A DNA stretch of 64,000 bases from the NCBI RefSeq assembly GCF_009914755.1, contig NC_060928.1; one strand, given 5' to 3'. Shown piece after piece: positions 49,700 to 63,429 of the stretch (position 1 is the first letter of the stretch; each line of letters starts with the position of its first letter). The stretch comes from the human T2T-CHM13v2.0 reference genome, Homo sapiens. The notes below the pieces were generated by a model. That model was not told the origin of the DNA and made no database searches. It saw only the letters and a list, made by a program, of their open reading frames with translations. The position numbers and the translations under genes were made by a program.

Positions 49700-49955
49700 A
49701 ATGACAGCAGTTTCTAGAGCTACACTGCCTGTGTTCAAATCCTAGCTATGTCATTTGTTAGCTGAGTAGCCTGGAACAGGTAAATTAATCCCTCTAATTC
49801 TCAATTTCCACATCTGTTAAAATTAGCATAATTATAATCATATCAGGATAATTCTGACAGGATTATAGCAAAAAAAGATTAAATAATATCTAATGACTGG
49901 CACAATACCTGCCTCATAAATATAAGTCTTCAGTAAATATAAACCACCATTATTA
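49700..49955 (+). mobile_element. MIR SINE
   Basis: gttcaaatcctagct...tctcaatttccacatctgttaaa. Confidence 0.75.
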
Positions 49956-56200: not shown

Positions 56201-58937
56201 AACAAAACACTTAACAATTCTGAGTCTCAATGTCGTTGACTATAAAGTAGAAATATCTTCCCTTCCTACCTTAAATAGATCACATTTATGAAAAAGATTC
56301 ATAAGTTATAAAACAACACCTCAATGAAAAATGCTGTATCTGGACTTTAAAAAGAAGTGAATTAAATACTAATTTTACCTCTTAGTATATATGTGATCTT
56401 AATGAAGTCCTTAGTTTTCTTGTCTGTTAAATAATAATGGTAAGGGCACCTTCTCATATGGTCATTGTGAAGCTTACATGTATAAAAAGCTCAGTACCAT
56501 GGCTGACACATAGAAAGTATTTAACAGTGTTCAAAAACATAATCAATATAGGAAATAAGTATTATTTTATTTCCTTAATAATTTCTTAGTTATACCCCAT
56601 TATCATATGTGATAAGAGAATGTACTTTATTTCTAGTTTTCCAGATAATCTGTATCCTAAACATTCTTTACTCCCAAATTCAGTCTTTGAGCATCCTAAC
56701 TCTTGACATCCACAGCTAATATTTAGGAAACATTAAAATTTGTTTGTACATTTGAAGGAAGAACTAAGTAAATGGAACTTACCAATCCTAAAATCCAGAC
56801 TGCTGTTATTAAGAAGAAGAACAACTGTACAAATGCTGTTATCAAAGGATGTATGAGTCAGGCGGAAAAAAAAGGAGAACACAGAAAGGTGAAAAGTCTT
56901 TGTCAAGCAGAGGAGAGAAATTATTGTCTTGTAATATATATGAGAGAGTCTAGCCAAATATTAAACATTTTTAAAATGAAAAGAAATATTATACATGGTA
57001 TGAATAATATTTAAGTCATTGCCTAGGTTAGAAGATTAGATATATTTACCTATTCTACCTACTTCAAATGCTTTTTTGCTGTCATTGTTTGGAACCTCCA
57101 AATACTAGAATGCTTTAGAATTATAAAACCATTGACCATGTTCAGTTATGTTTAAAAGAAAACATCATTCTGAGGAAACTGGAAATTATATATTTATAAA
57201 TGTTTGTCCATAGCATTGTTGAAACAAATGGCTCAGGTTTCACTGTTAATCCAGTTGCTGATATTTTTGACTACTCAATACACCAAAATGGTACAGTCAA
57301 GTTGGTGCTAATAGATGTCATTTATTTACACAAACTGACAATAGGTTCACCAAAGTTAAGAGACGAATTTAAGGGGGACAGAAAAGAAATTCCTGTGTGT
57401 GCTTTGGCAGCTTAGACATACTTACCACGAACAAGATTATATCTTAAAAGCTATTCGTTAAGCTTAAAATTAAGTTATATGGTTGTAATATGTGGAGATA
57501 GCACATTGGAATAGCTCTTCACTTAATGTTATAGATCACTTTTTCCACCAATATTATTTGGTCTAGGAAAGTAAAATCCTCTTGAGGAAGTAATTAGAAA
57601 AAGCACACATCAGGGAATGTAATTGAAGATAGACTTTTGTTGACCTCAGAAGAGAAAAGCTCAAAAGAAATTTCGTAAAGTTTTAAATATGGCAAGAGGA
57701 CCACAATGTCTTTGATAATTAGACTTTCAACACATTTGGATTTGCTAATTGGATCTAAGTTCTAATTAGGCTTTTTATGTAACTAAGAATGACATATCAT
57801 TGTATGAATTTAATGTGCTTTTACAGTTGAAACTAACAATTAGCAGCCTTTTCCAAATTATTTTAATAAGGAAAAAGCTGGCTCTGCTGTTTATACTGTG
57901 ACATTCCCTTCTCTTAAGATATATTATGTACATTTTCATTTTCTTAATTAAACACCTTTTGGGGAGCTTAAAGGGAAACTTGGGTTTTAATAGGAAGCAC
58001 CTAAATTGTTTATTTGTGGGGGAGACTTGCCAGCCAGTATGTAGATGACTTTGGAAGCTACAGACAAACCGCAATAAAAAGAAATAAATCACAATCATCA
58101 GGAGGAAACAGCACAAATAACCATTTGCCCCTATGACCATTCAGTTAATCAAAACAGTCTCTGAATATGATGAAAGATCTGTTACATTTTTAAGTGTGCA
58201 CATGCGGAATATGTTCCCAAATGTGAAGGCTCATGGATCTGCTTTCAGGATGAATAATAGGAAATTTCTTCTCAAGATGTGCATTACAACATTCTCTCTC
58301 TCTGTAGCCTTGTTCTGTAAACAGTTATCTGCTAATTCAAGTCAAATCATCTCTTTCTTTCTCCATATTTTTGATTGAGAGTCATCAATTTTTATCCCAT
58401 TCAGATATATAGACAGTAATTTAAAAACTGGTAGCCCTCAGATTTGTACATTCCAAGAGATAAGACCTATATAACAGCATAAAATTAAACTACTATTTGG
58501 GTGAGTAAAGAGCAGTGAGTCATTGCAAGACTTTAAGGGAAAGGCTGCTGCCAAAATATTCCAAGCAAATTGATAACACTGCCAAAAAGGCAAATTATAT
58601 TGTTTTATGTGCTATGAATACTTTGAAAACAAAGACATACACATGATTTTTTTCAAATAAAAGCAGTTGCCCTTCTAACCATATTAAAAATAGTGTCTTT
58701 TTTCCCAGTAAAAGCCATATAAGATCAAATTAAAACCATTGAAACTATTAGAGAATCTAACTTACAGTAATTGATATATTAAAAAAGACATTATGTTAGA
58801 GTTATATGTGCTATTATTTTTCCAATTAGTACATTACTGGGACTGAGTGATTGGTGTATACATAAGTCCTCATTAAGTAAAATGTCCTCAATGAGCCTCC
58901 TAAAGCACATTGGGTACTGTCATGTGCCATATAATGA

Positions 58938-59234
<297 letters not shown>

Positions 59235-59838
59235 TGAGCCTCGTGGTTTTGACTTTTGGAGGTTACTTTATCCTATATTTCTTTCTTTATTAACTGATGA
59301 CATAATCTTAAAAGAGATTTTAACAAATTCTAAATACGCTTTCTAAGATTTTTTAATGGTCATATTTCACAGCCTTCAATTTACGTGGATCAGGATCACA
59401 GTTTTGCAGACTTTTAACTACAGTGTATGTGTTAGGAATTTTCTTAGAAATTTTAGGCTCAATTTCCATCCTACAGTTTTCTACACATGACAAAGTAAAG
59501 GTATGTCTCAGGCCTTCTTTCATTAAAACTGTAGTGAACATAGATAGTCAACATATAGTGAACATTGAAACTATAAATGAACATAACCCTGACCATGCCA
59601 AACAATGGTAGATTTGGTAAAATGTACATTCTCTAATAGTGAAATATTAACAAACTAAGAATCTTTTTCTCGTAAGAACCTACTTCAAAGGGAAGCTGTT
59701 GTTTAATAGGCATCTACTGTCGACTGTATTCCAGGCTCAGTGCTGATTACTGAGAACATTGACAAATAAAATGACAGATATAATTCTGTCTTGATAGAAC
59801 TTATCATCTAGTGATTCTGTGAATGTTGAATAGGATTA

Positions 59839-60170
59839 CAGTAGTTTCCCTTTATCTGTGGGGGATGCATTCCAAGACCCCCAGTGGATGCCTGAAACTG
59901 TGGATAGTTTTGTTTTCTTCCAACACAATCACATTGTGTAGGGCTTATAGGTTATAGAGTGTGGATATGCTGGACAAAGGGATGAGTCACATCCAGGGCA
60001 TGTCAGTGGGATGGTGTGAGATTTCATCATGCTACTTAGAACAATGTTAAATTCAAAACTTATAAATTGTTTATTTCTGGAAGTTTTCATTTAATATTTT
60101 TTGGACCATGGCTGATTGAGGAGTAACCGAAACTGGTGAAAGAGCAACCATGGATAAGAAGAGTCTACTG
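59839..60170 (-). mobile_element. MER44A-like Tigger DNA transposon
   Basis: TIRs cagtagtttccctttatc / gataagaagagtctactg flanked by TA target duplications. Confidence 0.85.
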
Positions 60171-61178
60171 TATACCTGGGAAAGATCTGTTACAATTTCA
60201 TTTACTTATTAAAAAGTCAATAAATGGTAACTGTTATAATTCTATACATTATAGTTTTCTTTCCTAATAGATACATACAATAAGATGTTAATAGAAATAT
60301 TCTTAAACAGTAAAATACTCAAATGGGCTCTGTCTAAATAGCCATAAACCACGAAGGCATACATTCTCCTTTGCTATTCCAATGTGTTTAATCATGTGCT
60401 AGTTTATAGCCTGTTTCAAAACGTAATAGTCCATAGTTAGTACTTTATTTTTCTTCAGAAAAGTCTACTTGTTTTTAATTTTGAAAAAGATTTTCCTATG
60501 GGCTAGGTAAATTGCAGAATTAGTAAATAGGAGAGGAAGACTTTTTGATACGTTGATGCTAATTGGATGTTCATCAAATTTTATAACACCAGTTGCTGCC
60601 CTTTGTACATTGTTTACTACAAATTAAATATATGCAATGTAATTTTATTGTCAAAAAAGTGGATTTGTGCATATTTTCTATGAAAGGACATTCAAGTGAG
60701 TGACCTATTCTTCTTTTTTTGTGGCCCATAAATTATTCCTAGTTATTATTTTTAAAAGGGCTTAATTGCTTTTGGTAAATAATTGTAAGTATTTCACAAC
60801 TTAAATGTGAATTCGCTTCTGTATGTACCTAAGGGTATTGATATGCATTTACATTGATGCACTAATATTAAAAAAGACAGATATTTAAAGTACAGCAAAT
60901 TATTAATAGTCTTTCCTCCAGTGATTAGCATGAAAACTCCAGTGATGATTGCAGTGAAAGACGGTATATGTGCTTTGTTTTCCTTTGAGAAAAGAAAGCA
61001 AATCTTTAAGTCCAATTAACCTCAGTCAGTTTTAAGCAAATAGTTATTTCGCAATTACTATATGATAGACTCAGTAATGGATATAAGAGAAATAATATAC
61101 AGACCTTGTCCTCAAAGTATTCATAGAATCTTGTTAGGTTGATGCACATAGAGAAAAACAGCTCAGATTGATTAAATA

Positions 61179-61497
61179 TGGTTGACCCTTGGTGTCTGTG
61201 AGGCATTGGTTCCAGGAAACCCCCACACCAAAATCTGCAAATTCTTAAGTTTCTGATATAAAATGATATAGTATTTGCATATAACCTATGTACCTCCTCT
61301 CATATGCTTTAAAGCATTTTAGATTACTCTTAATACCTAATACAGTGTAAATGCTATGTAAGTAGTGGCTCTACCGAATTATATATTTATTTTTGTTATT
61401 TTTATTGGGTTTTTTTCCTAATATTTTTGAGCCTCAGTTTGTTGAATCTATGGAGTTGAGTCTAGATGCAGAACCTGTGGATATGGAGTGTTAACTG
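61179..61497. mobile_element. MER2-like Tigger DNA transposon
   Basis: gttgacccttggtgtctgtg...attggttccagga...gtatttgcatataaccta...gaacctgtggatatggag...aactgta. Confidence 0.85.
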
Positions 61498-61499
61498 TA

Positions 61500-61945
61500 C
61501 TTACTATGTGCAAGCTACTCTACTAAGTCTTTTGCATGTATTGTCTTATTTTGTCCTCACAATATTCTCAAGAAATAGGTAATATTCTGATCTCAAGAGG
61601 AAACTGAGACATCCAGAAGTTGAAATACATACATGTATGTGTGTGTGTATATATATATATATATATCTTATCATTAAGGGAAGGGGTTAAGGTCTAGAAT
61701 CAGACTTCCTGAATTTGAATCCTAACTCTGCTACTTACTATCTGTATAATGTTCATAAATACATGAACCTAGAAGAAATTGAAGAATAACATGCAAGGAG
61801 CGATTCTACGTGTGGTAACTGCTCTGGTAAGTATTACCTGAGCCTTGTGGTTTTACAGACAGTAAGTAGCAGAGTTAGGATTCAAATTCAGGAAGACAGA
61901 TTCTAGACGTTAACCCCTTCCCTCTTAATGATACATTATACTGTC
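61500..61945 (-). mobile_element. Antisense MIR interrupted at ~61626-61853 by a complex insertion
   Basis: 61500-61625 (...gaggaaactgagac...gaagttgaaa) continues collinearly at ~61855 (acagacagtaagtagcagag...ggattcaaa). Confidence 0.75.
61773..61854 (+). pseudogene. Diverged partial duplicate of the GRID2 exon 3' half (54 nt) plus donor and 28 nt of intron
   Basis: Ungapped match to 59169-59250, 73/82 identical by manual alignment; CTG|GTAAGT retained (GT 61827-61828). Confidence 0.95.
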
Positions 61946-63429
61946 TCCAGTCCTACTGTGATAAGTGTGAGAACTGAGGTGTCTATAGAATTTTGTTTGA
62001 CTTGAGAGTTGAAAATGCTTACGTCTGAATAAGGTGAAAGTGAGTTTTATTGGGAAGGATTGTAGGTACAATCATGTTAAATTCATTTCCAGGCTGAATA
62101 AAACAATTGCTATTTTGTTCATGAAATAGTAGCACTTCACACAGTGTTAACACCTGCATACCCCAGGTTCACCTTCATGACTCTTAATAATCTCTATTTC
62201 CTGCAAGCTTAGCCCTGCACAGATATTGAATATGGTTTTGTGACTGGAGACATGGAAGCAGTGTTTTTTTTTTTTTTTTTCAAGTCTTCTATGATGGACT
62301 TATCAGTTGGGTGCCAGTTGAGTAACAGGTTGTTATACTTATTACATTACTACAATATACAATCATTGTGTTTAATAATTTTGCATGCTTCCTATGTCTT
62401 TCTGTAACTACTCTGAGAATGGAAACCAGTCATTCCCTTCTTATTTATTTTCTACAAGTGCCTTTTCAGGTCTAGCTCTTAGTTATATGGCCTTGCAAGC
62501 TTCTTCTACTCAACACTGAGAACCACTCTCCCCTCACCCCACCCAGCAACTCCCGAATCTTGAGGCTTTACCTCACTAAACCCTGAAACTAGGATTTAAT
62601 CTATACTCAACTTGATGTTGTCACCTAAACGCAACCTCCCACCCCCTTATATTCCAAGTATTTACGTCCAACACTTTCCAGAAGAGAAAAGGGAAAGGAC
62701 CAATGTGTACATGGGAAGAAGCTATTTCCTCCTTTCTTCTATTGAAACTGAAATCTAGTCTTAGCTCTACCCACTCCCTCTTTTCTTAAGAAATTTTATA
62801 TTATCAATTACACCAGGTTAATAAAATGGATTTTTCTTACCAAAATTTTGAAATTCCCATTCTTATGACTGTTGATATTTTATTGACTTGAAAGAAATAA
62901 CTTCATATTTATTTTAAACTACACAATTCAGCACTCTACTGTTTGTGATCCCATGGGCAAATAAGTGGTGCTCTCAAACATTTCATTGAAGAGTTAAATA
63001 GAGGTATTATTGACGAAGATGTAAATAGTGTTAAAGGAATCAACAAGGAGTGTTGAATCACCAGAACCTACCTAGATGACTTACATGAAGACTGATAAGG
63101 CATGGGAGGAAGCATTATTACTAGACAAAGCAATAGAGCCATGGGAGAGAGACCATCACTCATAGTAGTAGTGAGCTACAGTGCAGAAAAAGAAAGAGAA
63201 TCACTGCCAATACCAAAATCAGGCTATGAGGAACTGGGAATAAGGGATACACTGATCTCACTCCTCTTATCTATCTCTTTTCATGGTCTCCAACTGCAAA
63301 TCCAACCAGAAGTCAGAGGTTATGGGAGCCTAAGTAAGGAAGACCATGAAAGTTAGTCTTTCAGGACACAGAGGAAGGCAGTGAAGCCCTCAGTGAATCC
63401 AGAAGAAAAGTAGAGAAAAACCAACACGA

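What the first reader, a model, noticed from the sequence alone, without database searches (positions are those of the whole stretch)
61771..61832. Duplicated half of the GRID2 exon forms a candidate in-frame 54-nt cryptic exon
Seen: 61773-61854 copies 59169-59250 (73/82 identical). The copy starts exactly on a codon boundary (aag aaa ttg), keeps the donor CTG|GTAAGT, and filler DNA puts an AG directly before it (cctag|aag, a NAGNAG). The AG...GT segment 61773-61826 is 54 nt, phase 0/0 and stop-free: KKLKNNMQGAILRVVTAL versus the real [24 protein letters not shown] branch-like motif lies ~47 nt upstream, but the pyrimidine tract is poor. Inference: inclusion would add a tandem 18-aa copy of the ATD-S1 linker without a frameshift. 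Alternatively the copy could act as a decoy or competing 5' splice site. Against function: 5 of the 6 changed codons are non-synonymous, as expected for neutral decay.
Basis: partly seen in the sequence, partly recalled or inferred. Interest (0 to 1): 0.85.

Follow-up and report, generated by a model that had tools for sequence, protein, structure and literature searches.

The report
Exon fragment inside a DNA-repair scar
An old repair accident pasted the end of a GRID2 exon, together with a flipped copy of a neighbouring repeat element, into the next intron; it looks like a small in-frame exon, but it is most likely an unused scar.

Summary
61773-61854 copies 59169-59250 (73 of 82 identical, no gaps). 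That is the last 54 nt of the GRID2 exon plus 28 nt of intron. The human assembly holds only these two places. The 54-nt AG...GT segment is in frame and stop-free.

The context changes the reading. The copy sits at the centre of an inverted repeat made from the 5' part of an old SINE (arms 61662-61749 and 61851-61940). The SINE's 3' part lies at 61497-61621, in the orientation of the right arm. So 61622-61854 is one inserted block: microsatellite, inverted SINE copy, 19 nt of unknown origin, then the exon filler. This is the signature of template-switch repair.

The acceptor is no better than an average AG in the window. The frame, the absence of stops and the intact donor are all expected from neutral decay. 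A published survey of junctions in human brain, cerebellum included, found no alternative GRID2 junction at relevant levels (PMC8257547).

Verdict: most likely an inert scar. Use as an exon is unlikely but was not directly tested.

The parts
59121..59222 (+). Genuine GRID2 coding exon, 102 nt, 34 codons, phase 0/0
   Evidence: Translation is 34 of 34 identical to GluD2 chains, e.g. 6lu9_A residues 393-426. The ATD-only construct 5kc8 ends at exon residue 25. Its acceptor pyrimidine content is 12 of 18.
59169..59250 (+). Template segment: last 54 nt of the exon plus the first 28 nt of the intron
   Evidence: Ungapped 82-nt match to 61773-61854.
61497..61621 (-). 3' part of an old dispersed SINE (model positions 101-235), original DNA
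   Evidence: nhmmer E 3.5e-12 against a 250-position model built from 8 genomic copies. It joins the right arm into a single hit, model 15-235, 79.2 bits.
61622..61668 (.). Compound CA/TG/TA microsatellite at the left edge of the inserted block
   Evidence: Read directly. Its only Rfam match is a sub-threshold mir-297 hit, 27 bits against a gathering score of 90. Origin unresolved.
61669..61753 (+). Left arm: inverted duplicate of the SINE 5' part (model 15-87)
   Evidence: The alignment to the right arm covers 61669-61749 (81 nt, 5 mismatches, one 2-nt indel). blastn extends the arms to 61662-61749 / 61851-61940. nhmmer places 61681-61753 on the model, E 1.2e-19.
61754..61772 (+). 19 nt of unassigned origin carrying the candidate acceptor AG (61771-61772)
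   Evidence: hmmalign does not place it on the SINE model. There are no other matches in the window. It is predicted to form a local hairpin with 61751-61756.
61773..61854 (+). Copy of the exon end plus intron start; templated filler at the centre of the inverted repeat
   Evidence: 73 of 82 identical to 59169-59250. Only 2 places genome-wide. The differences are listed.
61773..61826 (+). Formal pseudo-exon: 54 nt, phase 0/0, stop-free, followed by GTAAGT
   Evidence: Translation. It is one of 17 phase-0/0 stop-free AG..GTRAGT segments in the window.
61851..61940 (-). Right arm: original SINE 5' part (model 15-77), cut at its inner end by the exon copy; holds a second GTAAGT at 61862-61867
   Evidence: nhmmer places 61919-61857 on the model, E 2.9e-14. 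It is colinear with 61497-61621. The second GTAAGT is fully paired in the stem.

Best explanation
This is an inert scar of template-switch DNA repair or replication, of the FoSTeS/MMBIR or synthesis-dependent end-joining type. It lies in the GRID2 intron after the exon at 59121-59222.

An old SINE once lay unbroken on the minus strand. It consisted of today's 61497-61621, about 13-22 nt that are now missing, and today's 61855-61940. A break or stalled fork inside it was mended with copied DNA. One piece is an inverted copy of the SINE's own 5' part (61669-61753). The other is 82 nt copied in direct orientation from the exon-intron boundary 2.6 kb upstream (61773-61854). Synthesis then returned to the original template.

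The pseudo-exon features (frame, no stops, strong donor) were inherited from the template and have since drifted neutrally. In the pre-mRNA the two SINE arms are predicted to form a 78-bp stem with the pseudo-exon in its loop. That stem buries the branch-point region, so the segment is most likely removed with the intron.

Shown: the duplicate, the inverted repeat, the split SINE, the predicted fold, and the average quality of the acceptor.
Inferred: that it arose in a single event, which pathway was used, when it happened, and that it is not spliced in vivo.
For: 1. Both inserted segments have nearby templates. The exon piece is 2,604 nt upstream in direct orientation. The SINE 5' part is adjacent and inverted, with arms differing at 5 of 81 positions plus one indel.

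2. The arm sequence belongs to a dispersed family. It hits 9 other loci on 6 chromosomes at 82-90% identity (a lower bound). A model built from 8 of those 9 loci places three pieces here: left arm plus-strand at model 15-87, right arm minus-strand at 15-77, and 61621-61497 minus-strand at 101-235.

3. Right arm plus 61480-61621, joined in silico, give one continuous hit (model 15-235, 79.2 bits, against 40.9 and 34.6 bits separately). Left arm plus the sequence after 61940 gains nothing (60.0 against 59.8 bits).

4. The left arm carries model positions about 78-87 that the right arm lacks, because the exon copy cuts the right arm there. The exon insertion therefore cannot predate the inverted copy.

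5. The junction between exon copy and right arm overlaps by 4 nt with one mismatch.

6. The literature describes templated insertions as inverted copies of nearby templates flanked by microhomology (PMC8421209, passages). Template switching that creates hairpins in a single event is also described (PMC8794818, abstract).

7. Against splicing: and the RNA-seq survey PMC8257547.
Against: - No outgroup genome was available, so the empty site and the one-step origin are not shown.
- Microhomology is weak or unreadable at 3 of the 4 junctions. There is 0-1 nt at the SINE/exon-copy junction, and the microsatellite obscures the two left junctions.
- The 47-nt microsatellite and the 19 nt at 61754-61772 have no identified template.
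- The exon part of the copy is more diverged (7 of 54) than the arms (5 of 81) or the intron part (2 of 28). This is nominally significant if the real exon is constrained (p = 0.012-0.033). A single event then needs help from gene conversion between the arms, error-prone synthesis, or chance.
- For splicing: the donor is as good as that of a constitutive exon, the exonic sequence derives from a real exon, and by recall GAAGAA-type purine runs (one inside the pseudo-exon at 61781-61786, one straddling the acceptor AG at 61772-61777) act as splicing enhancers.
- The fold is a prediction only.
- The survey's table of rare junctions could not be read.
Confidence: 0.75

Rival explanations
1. The segment is a low-level or cell-type-specific cassette exon. 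61773 (or 61776) to 61826 would be spliced between the GRID2 exon and the next one, adding 18 (or 17) residues that repeat the ATD-LBD linker and the first LBD strand.
For: - The segment is in frame and stop-free.
- The donor is identical to the real one from -4 to +10.
- AG 61771-61772 is the first AG downstream of CTAAC (read).
- The amino-acid changes in the hydrophobic strand are conservative: V>A, V>I, V>A.
- At least some intronic exon homologues in human genes show split-read support (PMC9013439, section 6).
Against: - The acceptor pyrimidine content is average, 9 of 18, 59th percentile, with the longest run only 3.
- The branch region is paired: CTAAC has P(unpaired) 0.00, and 61751-61768 forms a local hairpin with P(unpaired) 0.06.
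- The donor G+1 is paired in a local hairpin that is 5 kcal/mol more stable than at the real exon.
- The substitution pattern is neutral.
- No relevant alternative GRID2 junction was found in human brain, cerebellum included. The thresholds were at least 35 reads with global abundance at least 0.05 or local abundance at least 0.15. [quoted passage not shown]
- Literature searches for GRID2 with 'cryptic exon', 'pseudoexon' or 'novel exon' found nothing on this site.
Confidence: 0.05
2. The origin took two steps. An inverted duplication of the SINE 5' part arose first, by fold-back. Later the palindrome centre broke and was repaired with the exon-derived filler.
For: - The exon copy lies at the centre of the inverted repeat.
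- The structure requires the inverted copy to be at least as old as the exon insertion.
- By recall, palindrome centres are break-prone and are stabilised by central insertions or deletions.
- Fold-back origin of inverted duplications is in print (PMC3907307, search listing only).
Against: - It needs two rare events at one site.
- The divergence figures run the wrong way: the exon copy looks older than the arms.
- The two histories cannot be told apart without outgroups.
Confidence: 0.2
3. The element acts at the RNA level without being an exon. Either it is a decoy U1-binding 5' splice site, or its long intronic double-stranded stem is a substrate for A-to-I editing.
For: - It carries a strong donor motif plus a second GTAAGT at 61862.
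- The stem has 78 pairs and no G-U pairs. Its energy is -141.8 kcal/mol against -63.8 +/- 4.8 for shuffles.
- Long intronic hairpins that induce editing in neuronal transcripts are in print (PMC3479170 and PMC5654063, search listing only).
Against: - The plus strand of the window alone has 32 GTRAGT and 5 GGTAAGT sites, so one more decoy is unremarkable.
- The second GTAAGT is fully paired.
- No edited site is known here. The 8 papers listed by the GRID2/editing/hairpin search (of 690 holding at least 4 of the 5 terms) all showed 0 mentions of GRID2.
- No conservation data are available.
Confidence: 0.1

Closest known systems
Templated insertions from template switching (MMBIR / FoSTeS; short template-switch mutations)
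   Same: The inserted DNA is copied from nearby templates. One piece is an inverted copy of adjacent sequence, which creates a hairpin-capable repeat in one step. There is a small deletion at the site and short overlap at one junction (PMC8421209 passages; PMC8794818 abstract; PMC5453318 and PMC2621351 search listing).
   Different: The pieces are longer (about 85 and 82 nt) than the 10-50-nt insertions those surveys target. One template is 2.6 kb away, whereas the MMBSearch tool of PMC8421209 looks within 100 bp. Microhomology is unclear at most junctions. The event is ancient and fixed, not somatic or de novo.
Unannotated intronic homologues of exons (tandem exon duplications)
   Same: It is an intronic stretch homologous to the neighbouring exon, on the same strand, with the donor retained. 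4,027 intronic targets of this kind were catalogued in human genes (PMC9013439, section 6).
   Different: Only the 3' 54 of 102 exonic nt were copied, and the acceptor was not. The copy was not made by tandem duplication of the region but is filler inside a repair junction. GRID2 is not mentioned in that paper's main text (0 occurrences), and its supplements could not be read.
Pseudoexons silenced by RNA structure (ATM and CFTR cases)
   Same: Splice-site-like sequences in an intron are predicted to lie in or next to stems. PMC1935003 (abstract) shows that unused donors can be masked by stems.
   Different: Here nothing has been tested in vitro. The main stem covers the branch region rather than the donor.
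MIR-type SINE (name by recall)
   Same: The family is dispersed and about 235-250 nt long, with copies on many chromosomes.
   Different: The name was not tested against a curated repeat library, because none was available.

Membership tests
Alternative exon derived from exon duplication | The whole exon is duplicated with both splice sites | tested here: not met
   The homology covers only 59169-59250. The first 48 nt of the exon and its acceptor are absent.
Alternative exon derived from exon duplication | Transcript or junction evidence of inclusion | not testable with these tools
   No RNA-seq was available here. The published survey found no relevant alternative GRID2 junction (PMC8257547). 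Its table of rare events could not be read.
Alternative exon derived from exon duplication | Purifying selection on the coding frame | tested here: not met
   5 of 6 changed codons are non-synonymous, against 0.65 expected per random substitution. Remaining stop-free has P = 0.94 by chance. The sample is small.
Alternative exon derived from exon duplication | A competent 3' splice site (pyrimidine tract and accessible branch point) | tested here: not met
   Pyrimidines are 9 of 18, the 59th percentile of 3936 AGs. The branch candidates are paired in the predicted fold. No MaxEntScan or SpliceAI score was available.
Templated insertion by template switching (MMBIR/FoSTeS-like) | The inserted sequence has an identifiable nearby template | tested here: met
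   The exon piece lies 2,604 nt upstream, and the SINE 5' part is adjacent. 66 of the 233 inserted nt (61622-61668 and 61754-61772) have no template.
Templated insertion by template switching (MMBIR/FoSTeS-like) | At least one piece is in inverted orientation to its template | tested here: met
   The left arm is the reverse complement of the right arm.
Templated insertion by template switching (MMBIR/FoSTeS-like) | Microhomology at the junctions | tested here: inconclusive
   There is a 4-nt overlap with 1 mismatch at 61851-61854. The junction at 61772/61773 has 0-1 nt. The left junctions are hidden in the microsatellite. About 5-13% later divergence blurs all of them.
Templated insertion by template switching (MMBIR/FoSTeS-like) | An ancestral empty site exists | not testable with these tools
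   Only the human assembly was held. The one indirect support is that the SINE model spans the gap in a single hit.
MIR SINE | Many diverged dispersed copies | tested here: met
   9 other loci at 82-90% identity (a lower bound). 8 of them align over about 235 positions.
MIR SINE | Match to the curated family consensus | not tested
   No repeat library was available here. The name is recalled.
Recursive splice site | An acceptor AG immediately followed by a regenerated GTRAGT | tested here: not met
   The AG at 61771-61772 is followed by AAGAAA.
Known structured RNA or miRNA precursor (Rfam) | A score at or above the family's gathering threshold | tested here: not met
   The scan of 58500-63000 gave 2 matches, both far below threshold (27.3 and 21.6 bits against 90), and neither lies on the hairpin arms.

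The most novel reading that the evidence does not exclude
In Purkinje cells the 54-nt segment is included at a low level, below the thresholds of the published survey. That would give a primate-specific GluD2 with a tandem 18-residue repeat of the ATD-LBD linker and first LBD strand. The SINE hairpin would act as a structural switch, through unwinding or editing, that sets the inclusion level.
Probability: 0.04. Interest if true: 0.6.

Novelty: new member of a known kind. Interest (0 to 1): 0.2.

Why it matters
The locus is a clean, fixed example of how template-switch repair can do two things in one small block. It drops a ready-made donor and an in-frame coding fragment into an intron, and it builds a long hairpin around them.

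It matters for annotation and for variant interpretation in GRID2, a gene for recessive and dominant cerebellar ataxias. The segment has a constitutive-strength donor and an open frame, so deep-intronic variants that improve its acceptor or weaken the stem could in principle activate it. Splice predictors may also flag it. For GluD2 biology as it stands, nothing suggests it changes the protein.

Tried and rejected
1. First idea: the SINE lies on the plus strand and continues after the right arm at 61941. This was rejected. nhmmer with a joined left+right query found only one weak hit elsewhere in the window. Pairwise tests against three weak in-window copies never crossed the junction. With the genome-derived model the join gains nothing, 60.0 against 59.8 bits.

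2. A MITE or DNA transposon carrying the exon piece was rejected. The 8 family copies align colinearly over about 235 positions and are not palindromic. I saw no target-site duplication in the flanks.

3. Retrocopy from mRNA was rejected. The copy includes 28 nt of intron and has no poly(A) tail.

4. Rfam found nothing relevant.

5. The two T>C changes that strengthen a hairpin over the copy's donor (-10.1 against -5.1 kcal/mol) might be a selected silencing signal. This is not supported, because the z-scores are only -1.51 and -0.24.

6. Literature. GRID2 with 'cryptic exon' gave 8 papers and with 'pseudoexon' gave 2. Passages read in 2 of them were unrelated. GRID2 with 'novel exon' gave 4 papers, 3 listed, of which one was relevant. 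One broad search was badly designed: all 12 listed papers had 0 mentions of GRID2.

8. No other primate or mammalian genome, RNA-seq data, MaxEntScan/SpliceAI or repeat library was available.

Full report
**1. The observation**

The window shows the GRID2 exon at 59121-59222 behind a pyrimidine-rich acceptor, followed by CTG|GTAAGT. Its 34-codon translation is 34 of 34 identical to GluD2 chains in the PDB, for example 6lu9_A residues 393-426. An ATD-only construct (5kc8) ends at residue 25 of the exon.

The stretch 59169-59250 recurs at 61773-61854 without gaps, 73 of 82 identical. The blastn E-value within the window is 1.6e-22, and no other copy exists there. In the whole 3.1-Gb assembly the 82-mer has exactly two places, itself and the real exon. 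The homology ends abruptly on both sides.

The copy begins on a codon boundary. 61773-61826 reads KKLKNNMQGAILRVVTAL without a stop. The donor region is unchanged from -4 to +10.

**2. What surrounds the copy**

- The repeat finder reports arms 61677-61749 and 61851-61923, 93% complementary.
- A gapped alignment gives 61669-61749 against 61851-61933: 81 aligned positions, 5 mismatches and one 2-nt indel.
- blastn extends the arms to 61662-61749 / 61851-61940.
- The right arm overlaps the last 4 nt of the exon copy, with one mismatch.

The left-arm sequence hits 9 further loci on chromosomes 1, 2, 4, 5, 12, X (three loci) and Y, at 82-90% identity over 40-65 nt (the tool states that such counts are lower bounds). 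It is therefore an interspersed repeat. By recall it looks like a MIR SINE, but no repeat library was available to test the name.

I cut the nine loci, dropped L011 as a duplicate of L010, and aligned the other eight. They are colinear over about 235 positions and are not palindromic. I built a 250-position profile from them. On 61401-62300 the profile finds three pieces:

| Piece | Coordinates | Strand | Model positions | E-value |
|---|---|---|---|---|
| Left arm | 61681-61753 | plus | 15-87 | 1.2e-19 |
| Right arm | 61919-61857 | minus | 15-77 | 2.9e-14 |
| 3' part | 61621-61497 | minus | 101-235 | 3.5e-12 |

**3. Which arm is the original**

My first guess was a plus-strand SINE that continues after the right arm. 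It failed: joining the left arm to 61941 onward adds nothing to the profile score (60.0 against 59.8 bits).

Joining the right arm to 61480-61621 on the minus strand gives one continuous hit, model 15-235 at 79.2 bits, against 40.9 and 34.6 bits for the pieces alone. hmmalign shows a gap of roughly 13-22 model positions at the join.

So the ancestral element lay on the minus strand and consisted of today's right arm and 61497-61621. Everything between them, 61622-61854 (233 nt), is inserted:
- a compound microsatellite (61622-61668);
- the inverted copy of the SINE 5' part (61669-61753);
- 19 nt that I could not assign (61754-61772, including the acceptor AG);
- the 82-nt exon-intron copy.

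The left arm carries model positions about 78-87, which the right arm lacks because the exon copy cuts it there. The exon insertion therefore cannot be older than the inverted duplicate.

**4. Mechanism of origin (inferred)**

The block contains two templated pieces: one inverted and adjacent, one direct from 2.6 kb upstream. A small deletion lies at the site and a short overlap at one junction. This is the pattern described for template switching during replication or break repair.
- PMC8794818 (abstract) shows that one such event can create a perfect hairpin.
- PMC5453318, PMC2621351, PMC3907307 and PMC9199198 were seen only in search listings.

One reading is a three-switch event:
1. Synthesis stalls inside the SINE.
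2. It jumps to the opposite strand and copies the SINE 5' part backwards.
3. It jumps 2.6 kb back and copies 82 nt across the exon-intron boundary.
4. It returns to the proper template a few bases beyond the stall.

A two-step history, with the palindrome first and a centre break filled by the exon piece later, cannot be excluded.

Weak points:
- Microhomology is readable at only one of the four junctions.
- 66 of the 233 inserted nt have no template.
- No outgroup genome was available to show the empty site.

**5. Age, and a discrepancy**

The differences are 7 of 54 in the exon part, 2 of 28 in the intron part and 5 of 81 between the arms. Of the nine changes in the copy, 8 are transitions and 2 are at CpG sites.

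If the real exon is constrained, which its identity to all GluD2 chains suggests, the exon part is more diverged than the rest (likelihood ratio p = 0.012-0.033; p = 0.19 only if the real exon were neutral). Possible causes are gene conversion between the arms, error-prone synthesis of the filler, or chance. I cannot decide among them.

With recalled neutral rates of 1.0-2.2e-9 per site per year, the figures span roughly 15-130 Myr, and the pooled estimate is 22-49 Myr. The block is old and certainly fixed, and it is probably shared with other primates.

**6. Is it an exon?**

None of the exon-like features needs selection.
- The frame and the open reading were inherited. After 7 random substitutions the 54 nt stay stop-free in 94% of 20,000 simulations.
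- The donor 9-mer escapes 9 hits in 82 nt with P = 0.33.
- 5 of 6 changed codons are non-synonymous, against 0.65 expected.
- An AG occurs at 6% of positions (3936 in 64,000), and the copy starts with its own in-frame AAG.
- The plus strand of the window holds 32 GTRAGT sites and 543 AG..GTRAGT pairs spaced 30-300 nt. Of these, 17 are phase-0/0 and stop-free: 7 on the real donor, 3 on the copy's donor and 7 elsewhere.
- The acceptor has 9 pyrimidines in 18, the 59th percentile of all AGs (window mean 8.9). The real exon has 12, the 90th percentile.

As RNA, 61655-61950 folds at -141.8 kcal/mol, against -63.8 +/- 4.8 for 200 shuffles (z = -16.35, 0 shuffles as good). From:
- The stem has 78 pairs, from 61662:61940 to 61746:61854, with no G-U pairs.
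- The remaining upstream stretch, 61751-61768, forms a local hairpin with P(unpaired) = 0.06.

The donor's G+1 pairs in a small hairpin that two T>C changes (61822, 61837) made 5 kcal/mol more stable than at the real exon. Its z-scores are unremarkable. All of this is prediction, not measurement.

Points in favour of use are the constitutive-strength donor, the exonic origin of the sequence, purine-rich GAAGAA runs (one within the pseudo-exon at 61781-61786, one straddling the acceptor AG at 61772-61777; their enhancer role is recalled), and the conservative nature of the strand substitutions.

**7. Print**

PMC8257547 is a de novo survey of splice junctions of all human iGluR genes in brain RNA-seq, including a cerebellum dataset with strong GRID2 expression. 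[quoted passage not shown] Relevance was defined as at least 35 reads with global abundance at least 0.05 or local abundance at least 0.15. It also says that no delta receptor isoforms had been reported (passages). Rare junctions are in its Table S4, which I could not open.

PMC9013439 catalogued 4,027 intronic homologues of exons in human genes and found split-read support for some of them. GRID2 does not occur in its main text, and its supplements were closed.

Searches for GRID2 with 'cryptic exon' (8 papers), 'pseudoexon' (2) and 'novel exon' (4) turned up nothing on this site. I therefore found no description of this locus in the searched library.

**8. Verdict**

The duplicate is real and far beyond chance. 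It is best explained as filler in a compound template-switch insertion that also created an 80-bp hairpin from a neighbouring SINE (confidence 0.75).

The cryptic-exon reading is formally possible but has no support. The acceptor is average, the branch region is predicted to be buried, the sequence has drifted neutrally, and a dedicated RNA-seq survey saw no relevant alternative GRID2 junction. I put appreciable inclusion at about 5%.

The locus is a new member of a known kind, of modest interest: a tidy textbook case, and a site to keep in mind when interpreting deep-intronic GRID2 variants.

Noticed in passing
61824-61843 compared with 59220-59239: Two of the nine substitutions in the copy (T>C at 61822 and 61837) turn G-U pairs into G-C pairs in a small hairpin that pairs the donor's G+1. 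The energy is -10.1 kcal/mol in the copy against -5.1 at the real exon. The z-scores are unremarkable (-1.51 and -0.24), so this may be coincidence.
   Followed up: partly
61862-61867: A second GTAAGT lies 35 nt after the copy's donor. It comes from the antisense SINE arm and is fully paired in the predicted stem.
   Followed up: partly
61622-61668: A compound CA/TG/TA microsatellite sits exactly at the left edge of the inserted block. It gives a sub-threshold Rfam mir-297 match (27.3 bits against a gathering score of 90). Its relation to the rearrangement is unknown.
   Followed up: partly
61662-61746 and 61854-61940: A 78-bp stem without G-U pairs, in the intron of a gene strongly expressed in cerebellum, is a plausible A-to-I editing substrate. 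No editing data were available.
   Followed up: no
49712-49769: A weak further copy of the same SINE family lies in the window (local alignment score 18, against a shuffle maximum of 15.5).
   Followed up: partly
62232-62305: A sub-threshold Rfam match to mir-1270 (21.6 bits against a gathering score of 90, E 0.45). Probably chance.
   Followed up: no
L010 and L011: Two of the SINE family hits, one on contig 24 and one on contig 23, gave identical match coordinates and identity. They look like the same sequence present on both sex chromosomes.
   Followed up: no
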